Made by a program: the position numbers and the translations under genes
Origin: Naegleria gruberi
Lineage: Eukaryota
Assembly: GCA_000004985.1 (NCBI GenBank)
Contig: GG739025.1
Strand: one strand, 5' to 3'
Length of the DNA stretch: 37,087 nt
Part shown: piece after piece, positions 1 to 37,087 of the stretch
Layout: the number at the start of each line of letters is the position of its first letter
Position numbering within the stretch: position 1 is the stretch's first letter
Notes under the pieces: model-generated
Told to the model about the DNA's origin: nothing
Databases searched by the model: none
The model's input: only the letters and a program-made list of their open reading frames with translations

Positions 1-384
1 TGGGCAAAGAAATGTGCCAAGTATAAGAAGGTTAAATATTGTAAGGAAAGAAAATCAGTTAAGAAATGTTGTCTCATTAAGAAGAAATTCTTCTGTGCCA
101 AACATAAGATTATCAAGTTCTGTAAGCACAAGAAGACTCTTTCTAAATGTGTCAAATATCAAAAGAAGAAGTATTGTGCCAAGACAATTGTCATTCCTCC
201 AAGATGTATCAAGAAGAAGTATTATAAGAAGTGTTTGAAACGTTCAAAGGGAAAGAAGATTTGTAAGAAATTTAAGTTAGTTGGTGGAAAGAAGAAGTGT
301 TGCAAGTCAATCAAGAAGAAGATTTGTATCAAGAGAAAGACATGTAAGAAGTCATCAAAGCCAATCATCAAACCATCTTTGTAA
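1..384 (+). CDS. Secreted lysine/cysteine-rich polycationic protein, copy A. Only the C-terminal 127 codons plus stop are present; the 5' end is cut by the window edge.
   Basis: Frame-1 ORF runs from base 1 to TAA at 382-384. Its translation (WAKKCAKYKKVKYCKERK...KPIIKPSL) is identical to the C-terminus of the minus-strand ORF at 29477-30448. The nucleotide sequences differ only at synonymous third positions (TAT37-39/TAC, TGT232-234/TGC, AAG274-276/AAA). Confidence 0.75.
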   Translation, partial: WAKKCAKYKKVKYCKERKSVKKCCLIKKKFFCAKHKIIKFCKHKKTLSKCVKYQKKKYCAKTIVIPPRCIKKKYYKKCLKRSKGKKICKKFKLVGGKKKCCKSIKKKICIKRKTCKKSSKPIIKPSL

Positions 385-414
385 ATGATTATTTTCAAAT
401 GTTTCTAATACTTT

Positions 415-420
415 AATAAA
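415..420 (+). promoter_or_regulatory. Putative polyadenylation signal AATAAA in the 3' UTR of copy A
   Basis: AATAAA lies 31 nt after the stop. The same 3' UTR segment (taaatgattattttcaaatgtttctaa..taataaagc) is conserved downstream of copy B. Confidence 0.4.
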
Positions 421-481
421 GCAAACTCTTATTGCAAAACAATCGCAAAGGACGCAAGTCAGTATTAAAAGACAAAACATC

Positions 482-553
482 CTCCCATGCCGGGAATTGA
501 ACCCGGACCTCCTGGGTGAAAGCCAGGTATCCTAGCCATTGGACTACACGGGA
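482..553 (-). tRNA. tRNA-Glu (anticodon UUC), 72 nt, no intron
   Basis: The reverse complement reads TCCCGTGTAGTCCAATGGCTAGGATACCTGGCTTTCACCCAGGAGGTCCGGGTTCAATTCCCGGCATGGGAG. It has a 7-bp acceptor stem (one G-U pair), a D arm, an anticodon stem CCTGG/CCAGG with loop CTTTCAC (anticodon TTC), and a T arm CCGGG-TTCAATT-CCCGG. A T-run follows on the minus strand (rc of 471-480 gives TGTTTTGTC), which fits a pol III terminator. Confidence 0.9.
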
Positions 554-752
554 TTTCTGACTACCATATTTCCCTTATTTTATAATAACGGATGTCTTAC
601 CTTATTAAATATATTAATTGATTATTTATGAATTTTTTACCCAAAATACTTTTTATCTAGGTGATCAATTTCAAAATGAATAAATGAACTAACTCGTCCT
701 CTCTTTTTCCAATCACTCTCTCTTACTGACTCGAAAGACGACGTACCTCACA

Positions 753-811
753 GTTCATACAGTCAAAGACTGTAGCGGGACAGTCGCCATATTCCTGGCA
801 GGCTTCCCGTC
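753..811. repeat. Conserved 59-bp structured element, copy 1. Candidate small ncRNA or repeat of unknown class; strand undetermined.
   Basis: The sequence gttcatacagtcaaagactgtagcgggaCAGTCgccatattcctggcaggcttcccgtc recurs at 28703-28761, identical except for three substitutions in the capitalised pentamer. It is predicted to form hairpin ACAGTC-AAA-GACTGT plus a second stem CGGGA..GCCA-tattcc-TGGC..TCCCG. It lies 200 bp from tRNA-Glu. Confidence 0.5.
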
Positions 812-1097
812 TAAATCATTAAGTGAAATCAAAAAATCTATTTGCTATTTTGTTTGTAGTGCATTAAGGGTAAGGATTTTTATCTAATTTAATTGTATGT
901 ATTCCCTTGTAATTACGTGCAATAATTAACATTTGTATGTTATTGCTTTCATTGTAGTTGTCTGTTGTTTGGCAATAAATTATTCTTTTTTAGTACCAAA
1001 ATATTTGGATTTCCAATAGGAAAATGAGCTCATTGTTGCTTGAATGAGAGTATCAAATTCATTGTATAATATAATTCCTAGAGCAGCAAAACTACCA

Positions 1098-27760: not shown

Positions 27761-27842
27761 AATGACATGTTTCTATTAATAAATTTAGTGAACTAATAAT
27801 GCAAAACACATTCCAACAAATGTTAAGGAAATAAAAGGTAAT

Positions 27843-27914
27843 GGGGACCAGTGTGAATCGAACCCACGGCCTCTCGCACCCAAAGCGAGAATCATACCAC
27901 TAGACCATGGTCCC
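27843..27914 (-). tRNA. tRNA-Pro (anticodon UGG), 72 nt
   Basis: The reverse complement reads GGGACCATGGTCTAGTGGTATGATTCTCGCTTTGGGTGCGAGAGGCCGTGGGTTCGATTCACACTGGTCCCC. It has a perfect 7-bp acceptor stem, an anticodon stem CTCGC/GCGAG with loop TTTGGGT (anticodon TGG), and D-arm/anticodon-arm sequence typical of animal tRNA-Pro. The T stem GTGGG/CACAC carries one G-A mismatch. The minus-strand 3' flank reads ATTACCTTTTATTTCC, which includes a T-run terminator. Confidence 0.85.
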
Positions 27915-28054
27915 TTACACAATAAATGGAAGTATTAAAATTGCTGCCTGTTATTGTGGAGGTGGGAAACAAGAACATGAAAATATGTAATTAGTTTTTC
28001 TTAACTTTCAAAGTTTCCATATGTTAGGGGAGATTTAATCAATGTCTTTTCACG

Positions 28055-28258
28055 ATGGATCTTGTAGTTATTTATTTGGTCATTGGAATTATGTTTCTCT
28101 TGTTGTGTTTAGTATCGTATTTGAGAAATAGAATATTAATGAGTTATTTCATTAGAAGAGAAAGTGAGGATGAGAAAAATAAGTTTGAAAACACTCCTGC
28201 ATGTTGTGAGATTACAATAAGTATTACTTCTTGTGAATCAGTAATTCATCCAATTTAA
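28055..28258 (+). CDS. Small 67-aa ORF with a hydrophobic N-terminus. Very doubtful as a gene.
   Basis: ATG..TAA ORF located between tRNA-Pro and the 5S gene. Its codon usage is AT-ending like the surrounding noncoding DNA, and no recognisable domain is present. Confidence 0.1.
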   Translation: MDLVVIYLVIGIMFLLLCLVSYLRNRILMSYFIRRESEDEKNKFENTPACCEITISITSCESVIHPI

Positions 28259-28335
28259 ATGTATTAAATATTTAAGATATATGTATTCCTGATAAAATTA
28301 AGCTCTTTAATGGAAAGTTATATGAATATTCTGAG

Positions 28336-28364
28336 AATGGCTACGGCCATATCATGATGAATGC
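28336..28364 (+). pseudogene. Truncated duplicate of the 5' end of 5S rRNA (about the first 26 nt)
   Basis: aatggctacggccatatcATgatgaatgc repeats the start of the 5S gene (aatggctacggccatatcACgatgaatgc at 28400-28428), 64 bp upstream of it, then diverges into gtaaggattttgataagg. Confidence 0.6.
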
Positions 28365-28402
28365 GTAAGGATTTTGATAAGGATGGTGTTAAGATCATGA
28401 AT

Positions 28403-28522
28403 GGCTACGGCCATATCACGATGAATGCACCTCATCCCGTCCGATTTGAGAAGTTAAGCATCGTCGAGCCACATCAGTACTGAGGTTGGAGACAACTTGG
28501 GAACCTGTGGTGCTGTAGTCTT
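28403..28522 (+). rRNA. 5S ribosomal RNA gene, about 120 nt
   Basis: GGCTACGGCCATATCACGATGAATGCACCTCATCCCGTCCGATTTGAGAAGTTAAGCATCGTCGAGCCACATCAGTACTGAGGTTGGAGACAACTTGGGAACCTGTGGTGCTGTAGTCTT. It has the 5S hallmarks CCCGTCCGAT, AAGTTAAGC, GTACT..GG..GGGAA and GGTGCTGTAG, followed by a TTTT terminator. Confidence 0.9.
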
Positions 28523-28524
28523 TT
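28521..28524 (+). terminator. Pol III T-run terminator of the 5S gene
   Basis: TTTT follows the 5S 3' end GTAGTC directly. Confidence 0.6.
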
Positions 28525-28702
28525 AATCTTAAACACTATTTCAATATTTGAAGACTAAATCGAAATTTTATCGTTTATTGATCAACCACAAGTTTCTTTC
28601 TAATTAGATCAAATTTAAAGGTGATAAATAGATGGTCACGTAGCAAGCTTTTCTAAACAATAACTTACTGAACCAACAATCAATAGATTAGTTGCCTTCA
28701 CT

Positions 28703-28761
28703 GTTCATACAGTCAAAGACTGTAGCGGGATTGTTGCCATATTCCTGGCAGGCTTCCCGTC
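28703..28761. repeat. Conserved 59-bp structured element, copy 2
   Basis: gttcatacagtcaaagactgtagcgggaTTGTTgccatattcctggcaggcttcccgtc, 181 bp downstream of the 5S 3' end. See copy 1 at 753-811. Flanks are not conserved, apart from a CTTACTGA octamer 22-31 bp to the left of both copies. Confidence 0.5.
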
Positions 28762-29229
28762 CAAAATAATAATTGAAATGTGACAATAACAACCACCAAG
28801 ATTTTATATTTTCTGGTCACACTCTGAATTATTAACATTTCATAAGAAATCATAAAAATTTTATGTTTTTAGGATTAATTTAATTTATTTACATACTGTT
28901 ACAATTCAAAGAAGTGTTAAAATACTGTGAAAAATCAAAGTAGGCTCCCTTTGAATTGTTTTAGGGCAGCAACCACCATCACGTGAAGGTCCAAGTTCCC
29001 TCTCCATAATTAATTTTCCATGCTAGCTTTGAAGGATAAGTATGTACTTTTGATAGGCCATTCATGGAGGAGAAGCAAGTTTTCTTTGTGTGAGGCTTGC
29101 ATTCAATTGGGCAAGTGAAAGACTTGGTGTAAAGATGAGAAGGTTGGTACGTTTAAAATTTTGTCCGTATCAAGAAATTTACTTCACTTTCGTTTTAAGA
29201 TTTCTGGTAAAAAGATATGCAAAATGATC

Positions 29230-29301
29230 CTCCCATGCCGGGAATTGAACCCGGACCTCCTGGGTGAAAGCCAGGTATCCTAGCCATTGGACTACACGGG
29301 A
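29230..29301 (-). tRNA. tRNA-Glu (anticodon UUC), second copy
   Basis: 72/72 identical to the copy at 482-553, in the same plus-strand orientation. The flanks are unrelated. A minus-strand T-run (rc of 29215-29229 gives GATCATTTTGCATAT) follows the 3' end immediately. Confidence 0.9.
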
Positions 29302-29476
29302 ACTCATTCATATTAAAAATATAACCTTAATGAAAATAGTACCTTATTCTTATAAAATCATCTACAAATGAACTCACTTAAGGATTTCCAACATTTCTTG
29401 AAATTTGTTTGCAATAAGAGTTTGCAAGAAAGGTTCTGGCTTTATTAGGGTGTTAGAAACATTTGAAAATAATCAT

Positions 29477-30448
29477 TTACAAAGATGGTTTGATGATTGG
29501 CTTTGATGACTTCTTACATGTCTTTCTCTTGATACAAATCTTCTTCTTGATTGACTTGCAACACTTCTTCTTTCCACCAACTAATTTAAATTTCTTACAA
29601 ATCTTCTTTCCCTTTGAACGTTTCAAGCACTTCTTATAATACTTCTTCTTGATACATCTTGGAGGAATGACAATTGTCTTGGCACAATACTTCTTCTTTT
29701 GATATTTGACACATTTAGAAAGAGTCTTCTTGTGCTTACAGAACTTGATAATCTTATGTTTGGCACAGAAGAATTTCTTCTTAATGAGACAACATTTCTT
29801 AACTGATTTTCTTTCCTTACAGTATTTAACCTTCTTATACTTGGCACATTTCTTTGCCCATGAAACAATCTTACACTTTTTAACATATCTACATTTGGAA
29901 ACCTTCTTATTGTAGGAATCAACAGTGTACTTGTCGCAAACCTTCTTCTTTTCACATTTTTTGATTGGAACCTTCTTGAATTTCTTACAGACCTTCTTGT
30001 ATCCCTTCTTGAAACACTTGTTGATAATCTTGTGTTTGGCACAGTATTTCTTGTAACCCTTCTTGATGCAAATCTTCTTAGTTCCATAAGAATCACAAAC
30101 TTTCCAGTACTTCTTCTTGGCACAACCAACAATCTTGTATGCATGCAAGACACACTTCTTTGTTGGCTTGCTATACTTGTCACATTTGGAATATTTCTTA
30201 TGTTTGAGACATTTACCAGCACCGACAATGGCATATTGATCACAGACTTTCTTTTGACCAACGAGTTTGTGTTTTAAACACTTCTTAATCCACTTGTGCT
30301 TTAAGCATTTTCTCTTACAATGCTTTGGCTTATGATACTTGTCAACAACGACGACTGGAGGTTTGGCTTGATAGCTGTCACTTGCTTGAACTGAGAGGAC
30401 TGCAAGTAAAAGTAGAAGTGCAATTGAAAAGATTAGATTTGCTTTCAT
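29477..30448 (-). CDS. Secreted lysine/cysteine-rich polycationic protein, copy B. Complete, 323 aa, single exon.
   Basis: Probable start ATG at 30448 (rc of cat 30446-30448). The ORF in the track begins 10 codons earlier at a TTG. The N-terminus MKANLIFSIALLLLLAVLSVQA|SDSYQ is a classical signal peptide. The mature region is about 35% Lys with about 34 Cys spaced every 6-11 residues, and motifs such as CLKHK, CAKHKII and KKYC recur. Stop TAA is at 29477-29479. The 3' UTR is conserved with copy A and includes AATAAA. A TTTAAAT-like TATA element lies about 55 bp upstream of the ATG. Confidence 0.8.
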   Translation of the reverse strand: MKANLIFSIALLLLLAVLSVQASDSYQAKPPVVVVDKYHKPKHCKRKCLKHKWIKKCLKHKLVGQKKVCDQYAIVGAGKCLKHKKYSKCDKYSKPTKKCVLHAYKIVGCAKKKYWKVCDSYGTKKICIKKGYKKYCAKHKIINKCFKKGYKKVCKKFKKVPIKKCEKKKVCDKYTVDSYNKKVSKCRYVKKCKIVSWAKKCAKYKKVKYCKERKSVKKCCLIKKKFFCAKHKIIKFCKHKKTLSKCVKYQKKKYCAKTIVIPPRCIKKKYYKKCLKRSKGKKICKKFKLVGGKKKCCKSIKKKICIKRKTCKKSSKPIIKPSL

Positions 30449-30753
30449 TTTTTGTTTTTGTTGGATGGGATAGTTCAATCCATGGTGCTAATTTAAACCA
30501 TTTCGAATAGTTTTTCATTTGGAACAAGCTCAAAAAAGTTGGATGTAAGGTTCCAAATTTGGATAGAAAACTGATTTCCCTAACTAAACTCAATTTACTA
30601 TTCGAATATCAACTCATCTTTCCAATACTATTCTCAATCTCAAAGAACTGGTTCTTGCATGATTTACGATCTTTGAAAAGTTAGTGATATGATTGTTAAT
30701 GTAAAAGTTGGTTTTATTACAATTACATTATACAACATCGAAAGCCAATAGTC

Positions 30754-33700
30754 NNNNNNNNNNNNNNNNNNNNNNNNNNNNNNNNNNNNNNNNNNNNNNN
30801 NNNNNNNNNNNNNNNNNNNNNNNNNNNNNNNNNNNNNNNNNNNNNNNNNNNNNNNNNNNNNNNNNNNNNNNNNNNNNNNNNNNNNNNNNNNNNNNNNNNN
30901 NNNNNNNNNNNNNNNNNNNNNNNNNNNNNNNNNNNNNNNNNNNNNNNNNNNNNNNNNNNNNNNNNNNNNNNNNNNNNNNNNNNNNNNNNNNNNNNNNNNN
31001 NNNNNNNNNNNNNNNNNNNNNNNNNNNNNNNNNNNNNNNNNNNNNNNNNNNNNNNNNNNNNNNNNNNNNNNNNNNNNNNNNNNNNNNNNNNNNNNNNNNN
31101 NNNNNNNNNNNNNNNNNNNNNNNNNNNNNNNNNNNNNNNNNNNNNNNNNNNNNNNNNNNNNNNNNNNNNNNNNNNNNNNNNNNNNNNNNNNNNNNNNNNN
31201 NNNNNNNNNNNNNNNNNNNNNNNNNNNNNNNNNNNNNNNNNNNNNNNNNNNNNNNNNNNNNNNNNNNNNNNNNNNNNNNNNNNNNNNNNNNNNNNNNNNN
31301 NNNNNNNNNNNNNNNNNNNNNNNNNNNNNNNNNNNNNNNNNNNNNNNNNNNNNNNNNNNNNNNNNNNNNNNNNNNNNNNNNNNNNNNNNNNNNNNNNNNN
31401 NNNNNNNNNNNNNNNNNNNNNNNNNNNNNNNNNNNNNNNNNNNNNNNNNNNNNNNNNNNNNNNNNNNNNNNNNNNNNNNNNNNNNNNNNNNNNNNNNNNN
31501 NNNNNNNNNNNNNNNNNNNNNNNNNNNNNNNNNNNNNNNNNNNNNNNNNNNNNNNNNNNNNNNNNNNNNNNNNNNNNNNNNNNNNNNNNNNNNNNNNNNN
31601 NNNNNNNNNNNNNNNNNNNNNNNNNNNNNNNNNNNNNNNNNNNNNNNNNNNNNNNNNNNNNNNNNNNNNNNNNNNNNNNNNNNNNNNNNNNNNNNNNNNN
31701 NNNNNNNNNNNNNNNNNNNNNNNNNNNNNNNNNNNNNNNNNNNNNNNNNNNNNNNNNNNNNNNNNNNNNNNNNNNNNNNNNNNNNNNNNNNNNNNNNNNN
31801 NNNNNNNNNNNNNNNNNNNNNNNNNNNNNNNNNNNNNNNNNNNNNNNNNNNNNNNNNNNNNNNNNNNNNNNNNNNNNNNNNNNNNNNNNNNNNNNNNNNN
31901 NNNNNNNNNNNNNNNNNNNNNNNNNNNNNNNNNNNNNNNNNNNNNNNNNNNNNNNNNNNNNNNNNNNNNNNNNNNNNNNNNNNNNNNNNNNNNNNNNNNN
32001 NNNNNNNNNNNNNNNNNNNNNNNNNNNNNNNNNNNNNNNNNNNNNNNNNNNNNNNNNNNNNNNNNNNNNNNNNNNNNNNNNNNNNNNNNNNNNNNNNNNN
32101 NNNNNNNNNNNNNNNNNNNNNNNNNNNNNNNNNNNNNNNNNNNNNNNNNNNNNNNNNNNNNNNNNNNNNNNNNNNNNNNNNNNNNNNNNNNNNNNNNNNN
32201 NNNNNNNNNNNNNNNNNNNNNNNNNNNNNNNNNNNNNNNNNNNNNNNNNNNNNNNNNNNNNNNNNNNNNNNNNNNNNNNNNNNNNNNNNNNNNNNNNNNN
32301 NNNNNNNNNNNNNNNNNNNNNNNNNNNNNNNNNNNNNNNNNNNNNNNNNNNNNNNNNNNNNNNNNNNNNNNNNNNNNNNNNNNNNNNNNNNNNNNNNNNN
32401 NNNNNNNNNNNNNNNNNNNNNNNNNNNNNNNNNNNNNNNNNNNNNNNNNNNNNNNNNNNNNNNNNNNNNNNNNNNNNNNNNNNNNNNNNNNNNNNNNNNN
32501 NNNNNNNNNNNNNNNNNNNNNNNNNNNNNNNNNNNNNNNNNNNNNNNNNNNNNNNNNNNNNNNNNNNNNNNNNNNNNNNNNNNNNNNNNNNNNNNNNNNN
32601 NNNNNNNNNNNNNNNNNNNNNNNNNNNNNNNNNNNNNNNNNNNNNNNNNNNNNNNNNNNNNNNNNNNNNNNNNNNNNNNNNNNNNNNNNNNNNNNNNNNN
32701 NNNNNNNNNNNNNNNNNNNNNNNNNNNNNNNNNNNNNNNNNNNNNNNNNNNNNNNNNNNNNNNNNNNNNNNNNNNNNNNNNNNNNNNNNNNNNNNNNNNN
32801 NNNNNNNNNNNNNNNNNNNNNNNNNNNNNNNNNNNNNNNNNNNNNNNNNNNNNNNNNNNNNNNNNNNNNNNNNNNNNNNNNNNNNNNNNNNNNNNNNNNN
32901 NNNNNNNNNNNNNNNNNNNNNNNNNNNNNNNNNNNNNNNNNNNNNNNNNNNNNNNNNNNNNNNNNNNNNNNNNNNNNNNNNNNNNNNNNNNNNNNNNNNN
33001 NNNNNNNNNNNNNNNNNNNNNNNNNNNNNNNNNNNNNNNNNNNNNNNNNNNNNNNNNNNNNNNNNNNNNNNNNNNNNNNNNNNNNNNNNNNNNNNNNNNN
33101 NNNNNNNNNNNNNNNNNNNNNNNNNNNNNNNNNNNNNNNNNNNNNNNNNNNNNNNNNNNNNNNNNNNNNNNNNNNNNNNNNNNNNNNNNNNNNNNNNNNN
33201 NNNNNNNNNNNNNNNNNNNNNNNNNNNNNNNNNNNNNNNNNNNNNNNNNNNNNNNNNNNNNNNNNNNNNNNNNNNNNNNNNNNNNNNNNNNNNNNNNNNN
33301 NNNNNNNNNNNNNNNNNNNNNNNNNNNNNNNNNNNNNNNNNNNNNNNNNNNNNNNNNNNNNNNNNNNNNNNNNNNNNNNNNNNNNNNNNNNNNNNNNNNN
33401 NNNNNNNNNNNNNNNNNNNNNNNNNNNNNNNNNNNNNNNNNNNNNNNNNNNNNNNNNNNNNNNNNNNNNNNNNNNNNNNNNNNNNNNNNNNNNNNNNNNN
33501 NNNNNNNNNNNNNNNNNNNNNNNNNNNNNNNNNNNNNNNNNNNNNNNNNNNNNNNNNNNNNNNNNNNNNNNNNNNNNNNNNNNNNNNNNNNNNNNNNNNN
33601 NNNNNNNNNNNNNNNNNNNNNNNNNNNNNNNNNNNNNNNNNNNNNNNNNNNNNNNNNNNNNNNNNNNNNNNNNNNNNNNNNNNNNNNNNNNNNNNNNNNN

Positions 33701-34202
33701 NNNNNNNNNNNNNNNNNNNNNNNNNNNNNNNNNNNNNNNNNNNNNNNNNNNNNNNNNNNNNNNNNNNNNNNNNNNNNNNNNNNNNNNNNNNNNNNNNNNN
33801 NNNNNNNNNNNNNNNNNNNNNNNNNNNNNNNNNNNNNNNNNNNNNNNNNNNNNNNNNNNNNNNNNNNNNNNNNNNNNNNNNNNNNNNNNNNNNNNNNNNN
33901 NNNNNNNNNNNNNNNNNNNNNNNNNNNNNNNNNNNNNNNNNNNNNNNNNNNNNNNNNNNNNNNNNNNNNNNNNNNNNNNNNNNNNNNNNNNNNNNNNNNN
34001 NNNNNNNNNNNNNNNNNNNNNNNNNNNNNNNNNNNNNNNNNNNNNNNNNNNNNNNNNNNNNNNNNNNNNNNNNNNNNNNNNNNNNNNNNNNNNNNNNNNN
34101 NNNNNNNNNNNNNNNNNNNNNNNNNNNNNNNNNNNNNNNNNNNNNNNNNNNNNNNNNNNNNNNNNNNNNNNNNNNNNNNNNNNNNNNNNNNNNNNNNNNN
34201 NN
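30754..34202. other. Assembly gap (3,449 N)
   Basis: Run of n. It hides the 3' part of the NTPase-like gene. Confidence 0.99.
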
Positions 34203-36209
34203 ACTTTTCGCTTTCTTCAGTATTAATAAATGCATAAAATATTCAAATACAATTCCCTTCTGTTGTTTCTTGATATTCTTTCTGAGATGATTCCACAATT
34301 GACCTCTATAATTCTTAAACATCGTTTGATAATATACTGAAAAGGAAATTGGGTCAACAATATCAAAGTGAAGCTCCTTTTTACCAACCTGAACCACATG
34401 TGCAAAGGCTGTCTCGATGAATGCCTTTCCAACAATGTTGTTTAAAAGTGAATCTTGAGGCACAATGTATTTTTCTCCAAACAACAAATTGAAAATAGTT
34501 TCTTTGATTTCCTCCCTTGTTTCTTCATTAGAAAATATTCTATCCAATCGTTTCCTTGAGCTATCTTCCTTGTTACTAATAATTGTTGATAAGCAATTTC
34601 TGATGGATTGGCTTAAAGTTGTTTTTTCAGATTTTAAATCATTTAAAAGAAGTCTGTGGAATGATGTTAAATGCTCAGGGGATCCTGAAAGTAAATAACA
34701 CAGAGAATCCAAATGTGGAAAAGGTTGACTGGTATTAAAATTGAATTTCTCTTTGAGCACAATTTTTACGTCGTGGCAACACCACGGATACATTTCACCA
34801 ACAATTTGTTTGGTAAACCTTCCTTCTTCCGAAGTGAGGATTGCTGAAATCTGAAACGTCGTCCCAAGGAACACAGGATTATTGAACCTGGAGATTACTT
34901 TGAAGACAGCGTGGAAAAGATTTCCTTTTTCTGAATTGCTCATATGAACAGTACCCACTCCATGTGATGTTAAATTATTTGCCTCGTCAAAGGCGAAAAC
35001 TACCTTAAACTTTTGACTCTCAAACCATTTACTGTATTCTATATTCTCATTTTCTATTATTTTTATAAAGTTTGGATTGTTTCCAATAATCTTGAGTAAA
35101 TGTTCGAATAAATCCACAACCACTCCATCTCCACCATTCCTTAGAAATCTAATAATTTGTAAATCGCCTTAACTCTTGAAAACTTACTTGAAAAACTGTA
35201 AGGGATTAAGATTTGAATAATTGTGTAACAAAAGGTCGAGTAAAATATGATTTGCCAAACAAAACAATCCAACAGCAACTTCTGCACTAACCTCAGGTAA
35301 ACTACGAACTAAAGCATCAAATAATTTAGTATTTGGATAAAGATAAATAACAAAAAATCGGTCAACATCTTCAGTGGAAGTATGAGCAAGATTAAAAATC
35401 GAAAAGGTTTTTCCACTGGTCGAAATATCAATTAAATGAAGAATGGTGAACAGCTGATCTCCCTTCCCCACTTTACAATTTCTTGAAAGAGCTTCTCTTA
35501 GATGATCACCCTTATTTTCAGGATGCCTAAATGGATCAAAATGACCTGTCCATCCAGCATAATCATTTCGTCTAAATGCTTCAAATCTATCTGGTAGAAA
35601 AACATTTTTAAAGTAGTCTTTCAAAAGTGCTTTTTGCTTACTTGATTCATCTTTAATCTTTTCAGTCCAGAGCTCCAAAGATTCCTTAAAGATTTGAAAG
35701 ATAGACCTTTTGTCATGAATAAAAGTAGCACCAATACGTTGTGAAAAATCTACTCGTTCTATTTCATAGGAACCATGTTTGTCTAATTTTCGTGCCCAAC
35801 TAATTATTCTAATAAATTCTAAATGAAAATATTGTGAGAGTCCGTAGGTAGTTACCAATTTTTCTATCACGGAATTATCCTCACTTTCTATTGCTGCATA
35901 TAACTCGTAGCCTGAAAAGCCTATTTGAAATAATACCCAAGCACTGCAATGTCTTAATTCTGGACCGTTGCATTTTCTTGAGGCACAAAAAAACGAACAC
36001 AGATCCGATGTTGACCAATTACTCATCTCTGAGGTTTTTAAGAGTAAGGTGTTAGCGTTAGCTGGTGAATTCATTTTTACTTTTTTTAAATGATGAAATG
36101 GTTCAACTTTTATAAAAACAGACTTTCGTCCATTAATTAAAACCGATAAAATATAATAAATTGTTTGTAATTGAGATACCAGGAAGAACCTCCTCTGTTC
36201 TAATGGCAT
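34203..36209 (-). CDS. Large P-loop NTPase-like (AAA+/STAND-like) protein, 5' part. Exon 1 is 36209-35188, a 39-nt intron spans 35187-35149, and exon 2 runs from 35148 down to the gap edge at 34203 and continues into the gap.
   Basis: ATG at 36209. The track gives two same-strand ORFs, 35184-36209 and the piece from 35123 downward, which 'starts' at a GTG. They are separated by gtaagttttcaagagttaaggcgatttacaaattattag, which has a perfect GTAAGT donor and an AG acceptor. Splicing joins them in frame (...LQFFK|FLRNGGDGVVVDLFEH...). The protein has a degenerate Walker A (LIDISTSGKTFS) and, about 100 aa later, a Walker B (KVVFAFDEANNL). Codon usage is AT-biased and consistent throughout. Confidence 0.65.
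35149..35187 (-). other. Predicted 39-nt spliceosomal intron (GTAAGT...TTATTAG)
   Basis: Consensus donor GTAAGT follows codon TTC-AA directly. If the intron is retained, the first in-frame codon is a stop (TAA). Its removal restores a long ORF in the same frame as the downstream ORF. Confidence 0.6.
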
Positions 36210-36381
36210 AATCCTAAGCTTTTTTGTTCTATAAAGATGAAAAGGTAAAAAGGCATGGGTGGAGTTACGCCACCAACACTTCAGAGAAATGAGCTGATCG
36301 TGGTGTTTGAATTACACTACATGCCTCATCTACATTTCAATTTTACACCTCTCTTATCTTGAATTAATTTCCAATATTCAC

Positions 36382-36391
36382 TTTATTATGG
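36382..36391 (-). promoter_or_regulatory. Putative poly(A) signal (AATAAA on the minus strand) for the 36444-37087 gene
   Basis: rc of ctttattatg gives cataataaag, about 55 nt downstream of the TAA at 36444-36446. Confidence 0.35.
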
Positions 36392-36443
36392 TTTTCTATT
36401 TTTGTCAACTGGTGAAATGGAGGTTTCAAACACTGAAGCTCAC

Positions 36444-37087
36444 TTAAATTTTCTTTGCAACAAAGAGTGCCCAATCAGCTCTTGGTTTAAGAGTCTTTCC
36501 ATCTTCTAATAGCTCTGTAGACATATGTCCAGCAAACATTTCAGTGTCATAAATTGTTCCGTTATCATCGACAACAATTGGAACACTGACATACCCTCTT
36601 GGAATAACATCTTGATCAATAATAGGCCATTCCATTGTGGTTGTTTCCCCCCAAATATTCACAGATTTTTGATCTCCCACCCAATGACCTTTATCTGAGA
36701 ATACGCAAAATGAAGTTATCCAACCAGACAAATAGGAAGGACCTGATCCACCACCACAATGATGGGCAACTCTATTCCACCATTCCTTATCAGGATTTCC
36801 TTTAATAGATTCCACAAATTTGTCCAAAACTGGGAATAATAGTTTGGACCATTTTTTCATACAGTTTTCCTTTGTATCAAATTCCAATAATCTATTTGCT
36901 CTTTCTCTAATTGAAACCCAATCCTCAACTTCGCCCAATAATGTTACATTTGGTAAATTGCAACACAAACTAAACATGTAATCAAAATAATTTTTCATAG
37001 CAGCCATTAATACAACTGCACCAATCATTCGATCTGTTTCGGTAGTTGTTGTAAAATCTGGCATTATCCATTCTCTTACACTTGGAT
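36444..37087 (-). CDS. Hypothetical conserved protein, C-terminal 213 codons. The 5' end lies outside the window.
   Basis: The minus-strand ORF stays open to the window edge: the in-frame codons upstream of the Met at 37064 read PSVREWI with no stop. The translation has a balanced composition with motifs such as [21 protein letters not shown] and no low-complexity stretch. It vaguely recalls DUF4419-type proteins, but that is from memory and unverified. Stop TAA is at 36444-36446. Confidence 0.55.

What the first reader, a model, noticed from the sequence alone, without database searches (positions are those of the whole stretch)
753..811. 59-bp double-hairpin element conserved in two places, each near a pol III gene
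The two copies (753-811 and 28703-28761) are 56/59 identical, with unrelated flanks. All three substitutions fall in one pentamer (CAGTC against TTGTT), which lies in a predicted internal loop. The paired segments ACAGTC/GACTGT, CGGGA/TCCCG and GCCA/TGGC are untouched. Copy 1 is 200 bp from tRNA-Glu and copy 2 is 181 bp past the 5S 3' end. The size and fold resemble a small structured RNA, possibly a pol III transcript or snoRNA-like RNA. A protein-binding insulator or terminator element near pol III genes, or the conserved core of a small repeat or MITE, are also possible. I could not find C/D or H/ACA boxes, tRNA A/B boxes or an Sm site. A short resemblance of ATATTCCTGGCAGG to the U1 snRNA 5' end is probably chance because the downstream sequences diverge. 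A CTTACTGA octamer lies 22-31 bp to the left of both copies.
Basis: seen in the sequence. Interest (0 to 1): 0.65.

Follow-up and report, generated by a model that had tools for sequence, protein, structure and literature searches.

The report
Orphan structured repeat among Naegleria RNA genes
Two near-identical copies of a roughly 60-80-base, G+C-rich, strongly folding sequence lie between tRNA and 5S rRNA genes on a small Naegleria gruberi scaffold; they look most like genes for an undescribed small structured RNA, but with only two copies and no outside data this stays an unconfirmed candidate.

Summary
The window is a whole 37,087-bp Naegleria gruberi scaffold, and only about 7 kb of it is resolved sequence. 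The two copies share a sharply bounded block (746-829 and 28696-28779), 74/84 identical overall and 56/59 in the core. The flanks are no more alike than shuffled sequence. The core has 51-54% G+C against 27-28% in the flanks. On the + strand it folds far better than shuffles (z -5.5 to -6.0) into a 7-bp hairpin abutting a 13-pair bulged hairpin.

It matches no Rfam family. It has no tRNA A/B boxes, C/D or H/ACA boxes, or U1 features. I found no terminal inverted repeats or target-site duplications. It is not part of any catalogued protein. The CTTACTGA octamer and the closeness to pol III genes are both compatible with chance.

My best reading (about 0.4) is a pair of genes for an orphan small structured RNA on the + strand. 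The main rival (about 0.25) is a short dispersed repeat or captured fragment, because this locus carries other recent duplications. There is no covariation, no expression evidence and no copy-number information: the N. gruberi genome could not be searched with these tools. Interest is modest.

The parts
746..829 (+). Copy 1, whole conserved block (84 nt)
   Evidence: 74/84 identical to 28696-28779, with identity collapsing on both sides. Covariance model R1 scores it 113 bits.
753..811 (+). Copy 1 core, 56/59 identical to copy 2, 54% G+C
   Evidence: Folds at -26.8 kcal/mol, z -5.98, with 0 of 200 shuffles as stable.
758..774 (+). Copy 1 hairpin 1: TACAGTC-AAA-GACTGTA (7 bp, 3-nt loop)
   Evidence: Minimum-energy fold. 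All 7 pairs are identical in both copies.
775..810 (+). Copy 1 hairpin 2: GCGGGA/UCCCGU base, GUC/GGC middle with A800 bulged, GCCA/UGGC top, loop UAUUCC
   Evidence: 13 pairs are formable in both copies, including G-U pairs that exist only on the + strand.
28696..28779 (+). Copy 2, whole conserved block (84 nt)
   Evidence: R1 scores it 114 bits.
28703..28761 (+). Copy 2 core, 51% G+C
   Evidence: Folds at -25.9 kcal/mol, z -5.50, with 0 of 200 shuffles as stable. G+C.
28708..28724 (+). Copy 2 hairpin 1
28725..28760 (+). Copy 2 hairpin 2
848..851 (+). First T4 run downstream of copy 1; a possible pol III terminator (inferred only)
   Evidence: Read from the sequence. It lies 19 nt beyond the block end.
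28802..28805 (+). First T4 run downstream of copy 2; a possible pol III terminator (inferred only)
   Evidence: Read from the sequence. It lies 23 nt beyond the block end.

Best explanation
The two blocks are paralogous genes for an undescribed small structured non-coding RNA of Naegleria gruberi, read from the + strand and about 65-85 nt long.

The RNA would consist of a short single-stranded 5' segment (UCACNGUUCA), a perfect 7-bp hairpin, and then directly a 13-pair bulged hairpin capped by UAUUCC. A weak 4-bp helix between the block's two ends may close the whole. Such a compact two-hairpin body would most plausibly serve as a protein-bound scaffold. Like the tRNA-Glu genes beside it, it would have spread as a gene-sized unit, which explains why homology stops at its ends.

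Shown: the repeat, its boundaries, its composition and its predicted fold.
Inferred: that it is transcribed, the strand, the ends, the polymerase and any function.
For: 1. The block has sharp boundaries and statistically unrelated flanks. The two tRNA-Glu genes of the same window show the same pattern: an 80-nt block, 98% identical, with unrelated flanks.
2. The core has 51-54% G+C against 27-28% in 200-bp flanks.
3. The + strand folds at z -5.98 and -5.50 for the 59-mers, and -5.15 and -4.53 for the 84-mers, with 0 of 200 shuffles as stable. The - strand reaches only z -2.47 and -3.33.
4. Hairpin 2 contains G-U pairs that would be A-C mismatches on the other strand. The C785-to-U change keeps its pair with G801 as G-U only on the + strand.
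5. Divergence is uneven: 3/59 in the core against 7/25 at the edges, p = 0.006.
6. The block's ends can pair: UCAC/GUGA in copy 1 (pair probability 0.8-0.9) and UUCA/UGAA in copy 2 (about 0.3), shifted by one position through the changes at 747 and 823.
7. A coding exon is not supported.
Against: - There are only two copies and no compensatory double substitution. 22 of the 25 proposed pairs never vary, which says nothing for or against the structure.
- No Rfam family matches at E<=10.
- There are no recognisable A/B boxes, no conserved upstream promoter, and no T-run directly after the block.
- No expression data could be consulted.
- No copies were found outside the window, but the N. gruberi genome itself could not be searched.
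- The locus carries a recent duplication: a gene fragment 97-99% identical. So 95% identity alone does not prove purifying selection.
- Both palindromes would form equally well in DNA.
Confidence: 0.4

Rival explanations
1. The block is a short dispersed repeat. It could be the core of a SINE-like retroposon, a fragment of a mobile element that accumulates near pol III genes, or a piece captured as filler DNA during the rearrangements that shaped this locus. In this reading it has no present function of its own.
For: - Homology has sharp ends and the flanks are unrelated.
- An A-rich stretch follows the G+C-rich core in both copies.
- The locus is visibly rearranged: there is an inverted 97-99% duplicate of a gene 3' end with breakpoints beside tRNA genes, and a truncated 5S fragment sits upstream of the intact 5S.
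- The core's 5% divergence is of the same order as that recent duplication.
- N. gruberi carries an unusually large number of tRNA gene copies, 924 (PMC2888827), which hints at active spread of small pol III units.
Against: - By inspection of the flanks I found no target-site duplication under any boundary choice tried (2, 3, 5 or 8 bp), no terminal inverted repeat beyond 4-5 bp, and no A/B boxes.
- No further full or partial copy exists in the window.
- Distance and orientation to the pol III genes are inconsistent: -195 bp and divergent from tRNA-Glu in one case, +176 bp and co-directional after the 5S in the other. This does not fit a position-specific integrator.
- A randomly captured fragment would not be expected to fold at z about -5.5 or to be a G+C island.
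Confidence: 0.25
2. The block works at the DNA level. Two adjacent palindromes (TACAGTC-N3-GACTGTA and GCCA-N6-TGGC nested inside CGGGA...TCCCG) would be binding sites for dimeric proteins, acting for instance as a boundary or insulator, a regulatory module or a replication element in a pol III gene cluster.
For: - Both palindromes are perfect and identical in the two copies.
- The loops, the spacer and the unpaired 5' segment are conserved as well as the stems, which an RNA helix alone would not require.
- The block sits in intergenic DNA between pol III genes.
Against: - About 60 contiguous conserved bases is much more than typical binding sites need.
- The G-U pairs and the better fold on one strand have no meaning for double-stranded DNA.
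- With only two copies, conserved loops may simply reflect a young duplication.
- No known motif was recognised: there is no B box, and the GCCA-N6-TGGC arrangement is the reverse of an NF-I site.
Confidence: 0.12
3. The block encodes a peptide. One option is a plus-frame exon (..TVHTVKDCSG[T/I]VAIFLAGFPSK..). The other is a minus-strand micro-ORF at 790-755 (MAT[V/I]PLQSLTV*) with A at -3 and G at +4.
For: - Several frames are open across the G+C-rich core.
- Four of the six substitutions within 746-815 fall in one codon phase.
- In the minus-strand micro-ORF, the three core substitutions are two synonymous changes and one Val-to-Ile change.
Against: - The phase bias is not significant: roughly p = 0.3 by my own binomial estimate, allowing for three phases.
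- The plus frame has no start codon and no convincing splice sites.
- A query concatenating all open frames found nothing at E<=10 among 5.8 billion proteins, which include the N. gruberi annotation.
- An exhaustive phmmer run gave only two repeat proteins, whose scores come from 7-8 weak repeat matches.
- The strong self-complementarity is unusual for coding sequence.
Confidence: 0.05

Closest known systems
Dispersed small RNA gene families with gene-sized homology (tRNA genes; vault, Y and other small pol III RNAs)
   Same: A gene-sized block (about 80 nt) with unrelated flanks, G+C-rich relative to its surroundings, a strongly folded body with possibly paired ends, located among tRNA and 5S genes.
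   Different: No cloverleaf (ARAGORN). No A or B box. No Rfam match. The terminator-like T run is not adjacent. The terminal helix is only 4 bp.
Dictyostelid Class I RNAs (Kjellin et al. 2021, PMC7919456)
   Same: A lineage-restricted, 42-65-nt, multi-copy small RNA with paired ends. This is an example of the kind of orphan RNA family this could be.
   Different: The organism is Naegleria (Heterolobosea), not Dictyostelia. There is no AAG start, no CUGU end, no 11-nt motif and no DUSE element about 60 nt upstream (one search compared).
Trypanosomatid small RNA genes with a divergent companion tRNA gene about 95-105 bp upstream (from my own knowledge of the T. brucei U6, 7SL and U3 loci)
   Same: Copy 1 lies upstream of, and divergent from, a tRNA gene in an organism from a related lineage (Discoba).
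   Different: The spacing is about 195 bp rather than about 100 bp. Copy 2 has no divergent tRNA partner and follows a 5S gene in the same direction. Nothing here tests promoter sharing.
SINEs and MITEs
   Same: A short repeat with unrelated flanks, a structured G+C-rich head followed by A-rich sequence, found near pol III genes.
   Different: No target-site duplications, no terminal inverted repeats, no tRNA-, 7SL- or 5S-type internal promoter, and the copy number is unknown. The resemblance to 5S (collinear CTGTAG, GCCATAT and TCCCGTCC) is only nominally significant and was found post hoc.

Membership tests
tRNA or tRNA-like gene | Cloverleaf fold with A box (TRGCNNAGTGG) and B box (GGTTCGANNCC) | tested here: not met
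   ARAGORN finds only the three true tRNAs. Rfam tRNA does not hit the block even at E<=10. By eye, only TAGC and GTTCA fragments are present.
Box C/D snoRNA | C box RUGAUGA near the 5' end and D box CUGA near the 3' end, brought together by a terminal stem | tested here: not met
   No C box on either strand within the block. The only CUGA lies in the non-conserved left flank (726-729). The only Rfam snoRNA hits are sub-threshold, on the minus strand, and reach at most 18 nt into the block's 3' part (snR78, 794-871, 20 bits against a gathering score of 48; SNORD25, 911-959, lies outside it).
H/ACA snoRNA (double- or single-hairpin type) | Hairpin with a pseudouridylation pocket of about 9-13 nt, and an ACA or AGA box 3 nt from the 3' end (H box ANANNA in the double-hairpin form) | tested here: not met
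   Hairpin 1 has no internal loop. The internal loop of hairpin 2 is at most 3x3 nt. There is no ACA or AGA at the required position (and the sequence).
U1 snRNA | ACUUACCUG at the 5' end, stem-loop I with a U1-70K loop, Sm site, match to the covariance model | tested here: not met
   AUAUUCCUGGCAGG sits inside the loop and 3' strand of hairpin 2, not at a 5' end. It lacks the ACUUAC core. No Rfam U1 hit at E<=10. The 2008 screen singled out N. gruberi for an extra unfiltered Infernal U1 search and does not report an N. gruberi U1 found that way in the passages I read (PMC2396436). This block does not fill that gap.
Pol III-transcribed gene (any type) | A run of at least 4 T directly after the RNA's 3' end; an internal or upstream pol III promoter | tested here: inconclusive
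   The + strand has T4 at 848 and 28802, 19-23 nt beyond the block. The - strand has none within 150 nt in copy 2. The window's tRNA and 5S genes have T4 within 0-6 nt. No promoter element was recognised, and Naegleria pol III promoters are uncharacterised.
MITE or DNA transposon | Terminal inverted repeats of at least 10 bp and target-site duplications | tested here: not met
   Only a 4-5-bp end complementarity (TTCAC/GTGAA). No 2-, 3- or 8-bp duplication flanks either copy (sequence).
SINE or retroposon | Internal pol III promoter, A-rich or simple-repeat tail, target-site duplication, many copies | tested here: inconclusive
   An A-rich tail is present. The promoter and duplications were not found. 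Copy number could not be measured, because the N. gruberi genome is absent from every searchable collection.
5S rRNA-derived element | Alignable to 5S rRNA, including the internal control region | tested here: not met
   Local alignment to the window's 5S is not better than shuffles. A chain of short collinear words against a circularised 5S gives p about 0.005-0.03, post hoc. The Rfam 5S model does not hit the block.
Protein-coding exon | Open frame with start or splice signals, homologous proteins, an excess of synonymous changes | tested here: not met
   see the coding rival.
Dictyostelid Class I RNA | AAG start, CUGU end, 11-nt motif, DUSE at about -60, host in Dictyostelia | tested here: not met
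   The host is N. gruberi. The motifs are absent.

The most novel reading that the evidence does not exclude
These are the first two members of an undescribed small-RNA family of Naegleria or Heterolobosea that resides in pol III gene clusters. The family might be a lineage-specific ribonucleoprotein scaffold transcribed from a promoter type not yet defined in this group. It could even be the still unidentified RNA partner of a conserved particle.
Probability: 0.15. Interest if true: 0.55.

Novelty: new member of a known kind. Interest (0 to 1): 0.35.

Why it matters
Non-coding RNA inventories for Heterolobosea are very thin, and nothing is known about how Naegleria small RNA genes are organised or promoted. 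A confirmed new small RNA sitting among tRNA and 5S genes would give a first handle on both questions. It might also be useful in the relatives of the pathogen N. fowleri. If it is only a short repeat or a captured fragment, its value is limited to marking a rearrangement-prone tRNA/5S cluster.

Tried and rejected
1. Dictyostelid Class I RNA. I first guessed a dictyostelid from memory of the 5S sequence. One search showed the host is N. gruberi, and the class motifs are absent.
2. U1 snRNA, with either AUAUUCCUGGCAGG or CUUACUGA as the 5' splice-site-binding end. Position and context are wrong and there is no covariance-model hit.
3. Spliced-leader RNA, considered because SL genes are often linked to 5S genes. 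Neither strand has a conserved GU donor: the GAG|GUACGU in copy 1 (minus strand) is GAAGGCAAC in copy 2.
4. U7-like or other Sm-class RNA on the minus strand. AUUUUGG in copy 2 is only AUUUAGA in copy 1, and the 5' region is not conserved.
5. C/D and H/ACA snoRNAs, HDV-like and hammerhead ribozymes, SECIS, the histone stem-loop, K-turn, and SRP Alu domain. No motifs or Rfam hits at E<=10.
6. Helitron 3' end (hairpin plus CTRR), IS200/IS605 ends with a TTAC target, and an orphan Fanzor/TnpB guide-RNA scaffold. The end motifs are absent, the sequence between TTAC and the hairpin is not conserved, and there is no nearby ORF (one search gives only DUF4419 about 7.7 kb away).
7. CTTACTGA as an intron branch point (plus strand) or 5' splice site (minus strand) of a flanking exon. 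No conserved downstream or upstream exon exists, and the octamer is compatible with chance.
8. Extended homology of the left flank, suggested by a lenient blastn run (616-829, 67%). It is not better than shuffles.
9. Derivation from 5S or from tRNA-Glu. Not significant, or only post hoc.
10. Outside copies. Exact 24-mer and 22-mer scans of metagenome and GTDB genome contigs and a 23-base pattern in viral contigs all gave 0 hits. The covariance model run on 47.6 kb from four fetched loci, one from N. lovaniensis and three Logan contigs of unknown origin, gave only noise: the best hit, at 18.9 bits, lies inside a filamin coding sequence.
11. N. gruberi loci could not be fetched: six look-ups were all not on record.
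12. A literature search for the sequence itself found nothing relevant.

Full report
**Where the window comes from.** A protein encoded at 36444-37064 is 100% identical to a predicted protein of Naegleria gruberi whose only contig is 37,087 bp long. The window is therefore an entire small scaffold of that assembly. Only three stretches are resolved sequence: 1-1097, 27761-30753 and 34203-37087. The rest is N. The resolved 7 kb holds tRNA-Glu(UUC) at 482-553 (-) and 29229-29302 (-), tRNA-Pro(UGG) at 27843-27914 (-), and a 5S rRNA at 28403-28521 (+). But in so dense a cluster, nearly every position lies within a few hundred bp of a pol III gene.

**Checking the observation.** The core is 56/59 identical, differing at 781, 782 and 785. 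The shared block is somewhat longer: 746-829 against 28696-28779, 74/84 identical. Outside it, in-register identity drops to 2-8 of 20. Local alignment of 150-170-nt flanks is no better than dinucleotide shuffles (left 163/500, right 179/500). A lenient blastn run had suggested homology back to 616, but that did not survive the shuffle test. A covariance model of the pair finds only these two sites in the window (114 and 113 bits; next best 10 bits). The CTTACTGA octamer is present at 723-730 and 28664-28671. However, an 8-mer shared between the two left flanks occurs in 7% (60-nt flanks) to 23% (100-nt flanks) of shuffles, and its spacing to the block differs by 9 nt. I treat it as probably chance.

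**Anatomy.**
- *Composition.* The core has 51-54% G+C in flanks of 27-28%.
- *Hairpin 1.* On the + strand, 758-774 forms TACAGUC-AAA-GACUGUA, a perfect 7-bp stem.
- *Hairpin 2.* It follows without a spacer at 775-810: a 6-pair base GCGGGA/UCCCGU, three more pairs (G783-C803, U784-G802, C/U785-G801) with A800 bulged, a GCCA/UGGC top, and a UAUUCC loop.
- *Stability.* The 59-mers fold at -26.8 and -25.9 kcal/mol, z -5.98 and -5.50, with 0 of 200 shuffles as stable. The reverse strand of the 84-mers reaches only z -2.47 and -3.33.
- *Strand evidence.* The asymmetry comes from G-U pairs: G775-U810, U784-G802 and, in copy 2, U785-G801. The C785-to-U change keeps its pair only if the + strand is the one that folds.
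- *Possible terminal helix.* The ends of the block can pair as UCAC/GUGA in copy 1 (pair probability 0.8-0.9) and UUCA/UGAA in copy 2 (about 0.3). The substitutions at 747 and 823 shift the helix by one position. It is notable that sequence conservation begins and ends exactly at this possible helix, but 4 bp is weak.
- *Covariation.* There is no compensatory double change anywhere. 22 of the 25 pairs never vary, so the alignment cannot confirm the structure.

**Is the conservation due to selection?** Divergence is uneven: 3/59 in the core against 7/25 at the edges (p = 0.006). That fits constraint on the core. There is a caveat, though. The same two contigs carry a 97-99% identical inverted duplicate of the 3' end of a Lys/Cys-rich secreted-protein gene (1-448 against 29398-29860), so recent duplication has happened here. 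By my own Fisher estimate (about 3/59 against 4/422, p about 0.03), the core is more diverged than that fragment. Since the intervening DNA is unrelated, the element was not simply carried along in that event. Even so, 95% identity alone does not prove purifying selection. What is independent of age is that the duplicated piece is itself unusual: a G+C island that folds about 5.5 standard deviations better than shuffles.

**What it is not.**
- *Known RNA families.* Rfam finds nothing at gathering thresholds, and only irrelevant sub-threshold hits at E<=10 around both copies. ARAGORN finds no tRNA there.
- *Motifs checked by inspection.* There is no A or B box and no C/D or H/ACA box in the required geometry. 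There is no Sm site conserved in both copies and no conserved splice donor (which excludes a spliced-leader RNA). I found no Helitron or IS200/IS605 end motifs, no terminal inverted repeat beyond 4-5 bp and no target-site duplication.
- *U1.* The U1-like AUAUUCCUGGCAGG lies inside hairpin 2 and lacks the ACUUAC core. The 2008 screen singled out N. gruberi for an extra unfiltered Infernal U1 search and does not report an N. gruberi U1 found that way in the passages I read (PMC2396436), but this block does not fit one.
- *Class I RNA.* My own first guess, a dictyostelid Class I RNA (PMC7919456), was wrong on the organism and on every motif.
- *Coding.* Several reading frames are open across the core, and four of six substitutions share a codon phase. 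In a minus-strand micro-ORF (MAT[V/I]PLQSLTV*), the three core changes are two synonymous and one Val-to-Ile. The numbers are too small to mean anything. A query concatenating all open frames found nothing at E<=10 among 5.8 billion proteins. An exhaustive phmmer run returned only two repeat proteins, whose scores come from 7-8 weak repeat matches.
- *5S-derived.* The words CTGTAG, GCCATAT and TCCCGTCC are collinear with a circularised 5S at nominal p 0.005-0.03. This was found post hoc, and ordinary alignment and the 5S model do not support it.

**Search for relatives.** Exact scans with each half of the core found nothing in JGI metagenome contigs, GTDB genome contigs or IMG/VR. None of these collections holds the N. 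gruberi genome. Six look-ups of N. gruberi proteins were not on record. A 21-kb N. lovaniensis locus and three Logan contigs contained no copy. A literature search for the sequence found nothing relevant. Copy number in N. gruberi and conservation in other species therefore remain unknown. This is the main limit of the evaluation.

**Pol III signals.** The tRNA and 5S genes here have a T4 run within 0-6 nt of their 3' ends. For the element, the first + strand T4 is 19 and 23 nt beyond the block, at 848 and 28802. The minus strand of copy 2 has none for more than 150 nt. This slightly favours the + strand, but it does not establish pol III transcription.

**Verdict.** The repeat is real, sharply bounded, compositionally distinct and strongly structured. 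The explanation I consider most likely (about 0.4) is a pair of genes for an orphan small structured RNA on the + strand. It behaves in the genome like the neighbouring tRNA-Glu genes, with gene-sized homology and unrelated flanks. The main rival (about 0.25) is a short dispersed repeat or captured fragment in a rearrangement-prone tRNA/5S cluster. A DNA-level palindromic binding module (about 0.12) and a micro-peptide (about 0.05) are less likely. The remaining probability covers a neutral leftover of duplication or something not considered here. A genome-wide search plus small-RNA data would settle the question quickly. Interest is modest: orphan small-RNA candidates in poorly annotated protists are expected, and nothing here contradicts current understanding.

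Noticed in passing
window 28335-28398: A truncated, internally deleted 5S fragment lies directly upstream of the intact 5S gene (28403-28521). It holds 5S nt 1-26 with 4 upstream bases, followed by a stretch resembling 5S nt 42-60. This suggests a decayed tandem 5S duplication.
   Followed up: partly
window 1-448 and 29398-29860: An inverted 97-99% identical duplicate of the 3' end of a gene. The breakpoint lies 34 bp and 96 bp from a tRNA-Glu(UUC) gene in the two arms, and the tRNA has opposite orientation relative to the gene in each arm. tRNA genes seem to mark rearrangement breakpoints here.
   Followed up: partly
window 29477-30448 (-): A 323-aa Lys/Cys-rich protein with an N-terminal signal-like segment and no Pfam domain. 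It has N. gruberi paralogues (P0109 at 88% identity, P0110 at 44%). It does not appear to be in the protein collection as such.
   Followed up: partly
window 790-755 (-): A micro-ORF inside the element, ATG GCG ACT GTC CCG CTA CAG TCT TTG ACT GTA TGA (MATVPLQSLTV*), with A at -3 and G at +4. The three core substitutions are two synonymous changes and one Val-to-Ile. There are too few sites to test.
   Followed up: partly
window 28901-28911 and 28949-28959: An 11-bp inverted repeat, ACAATTCAAAG / CTTTGAATTGT, separated by 37 nt, between copy 2 and the second tRNA-Glu.
   Followed up: no
window 1098-27760 and 30754-34202: Two long runs of N make up about 81% of the scaffold. Anything between copy 1 and tRNA-Pro, including further copies, is invisible.
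   Followed up: no
L002 (Logan SRR12245243 contig, 71 kb), 1-21074: A DUF4419 homologue (P0005, 63% identical to the window's protein) sits among densely packed short genes of mostly unknown function, with no tRNAs. The layout looks more viral or bacterial than Naegleria-like.
   Followed up: no
window 826-850; also 36880-36904 and 34475-34511: The 25 nt just right of copy 1 (AAATCAAAAAATCTATTTGCTATTT) has 81-84% matches at two other places in the window (E 0.001-0.06). In this A+T-rich DNA that is probably chance.
   Followed up: no
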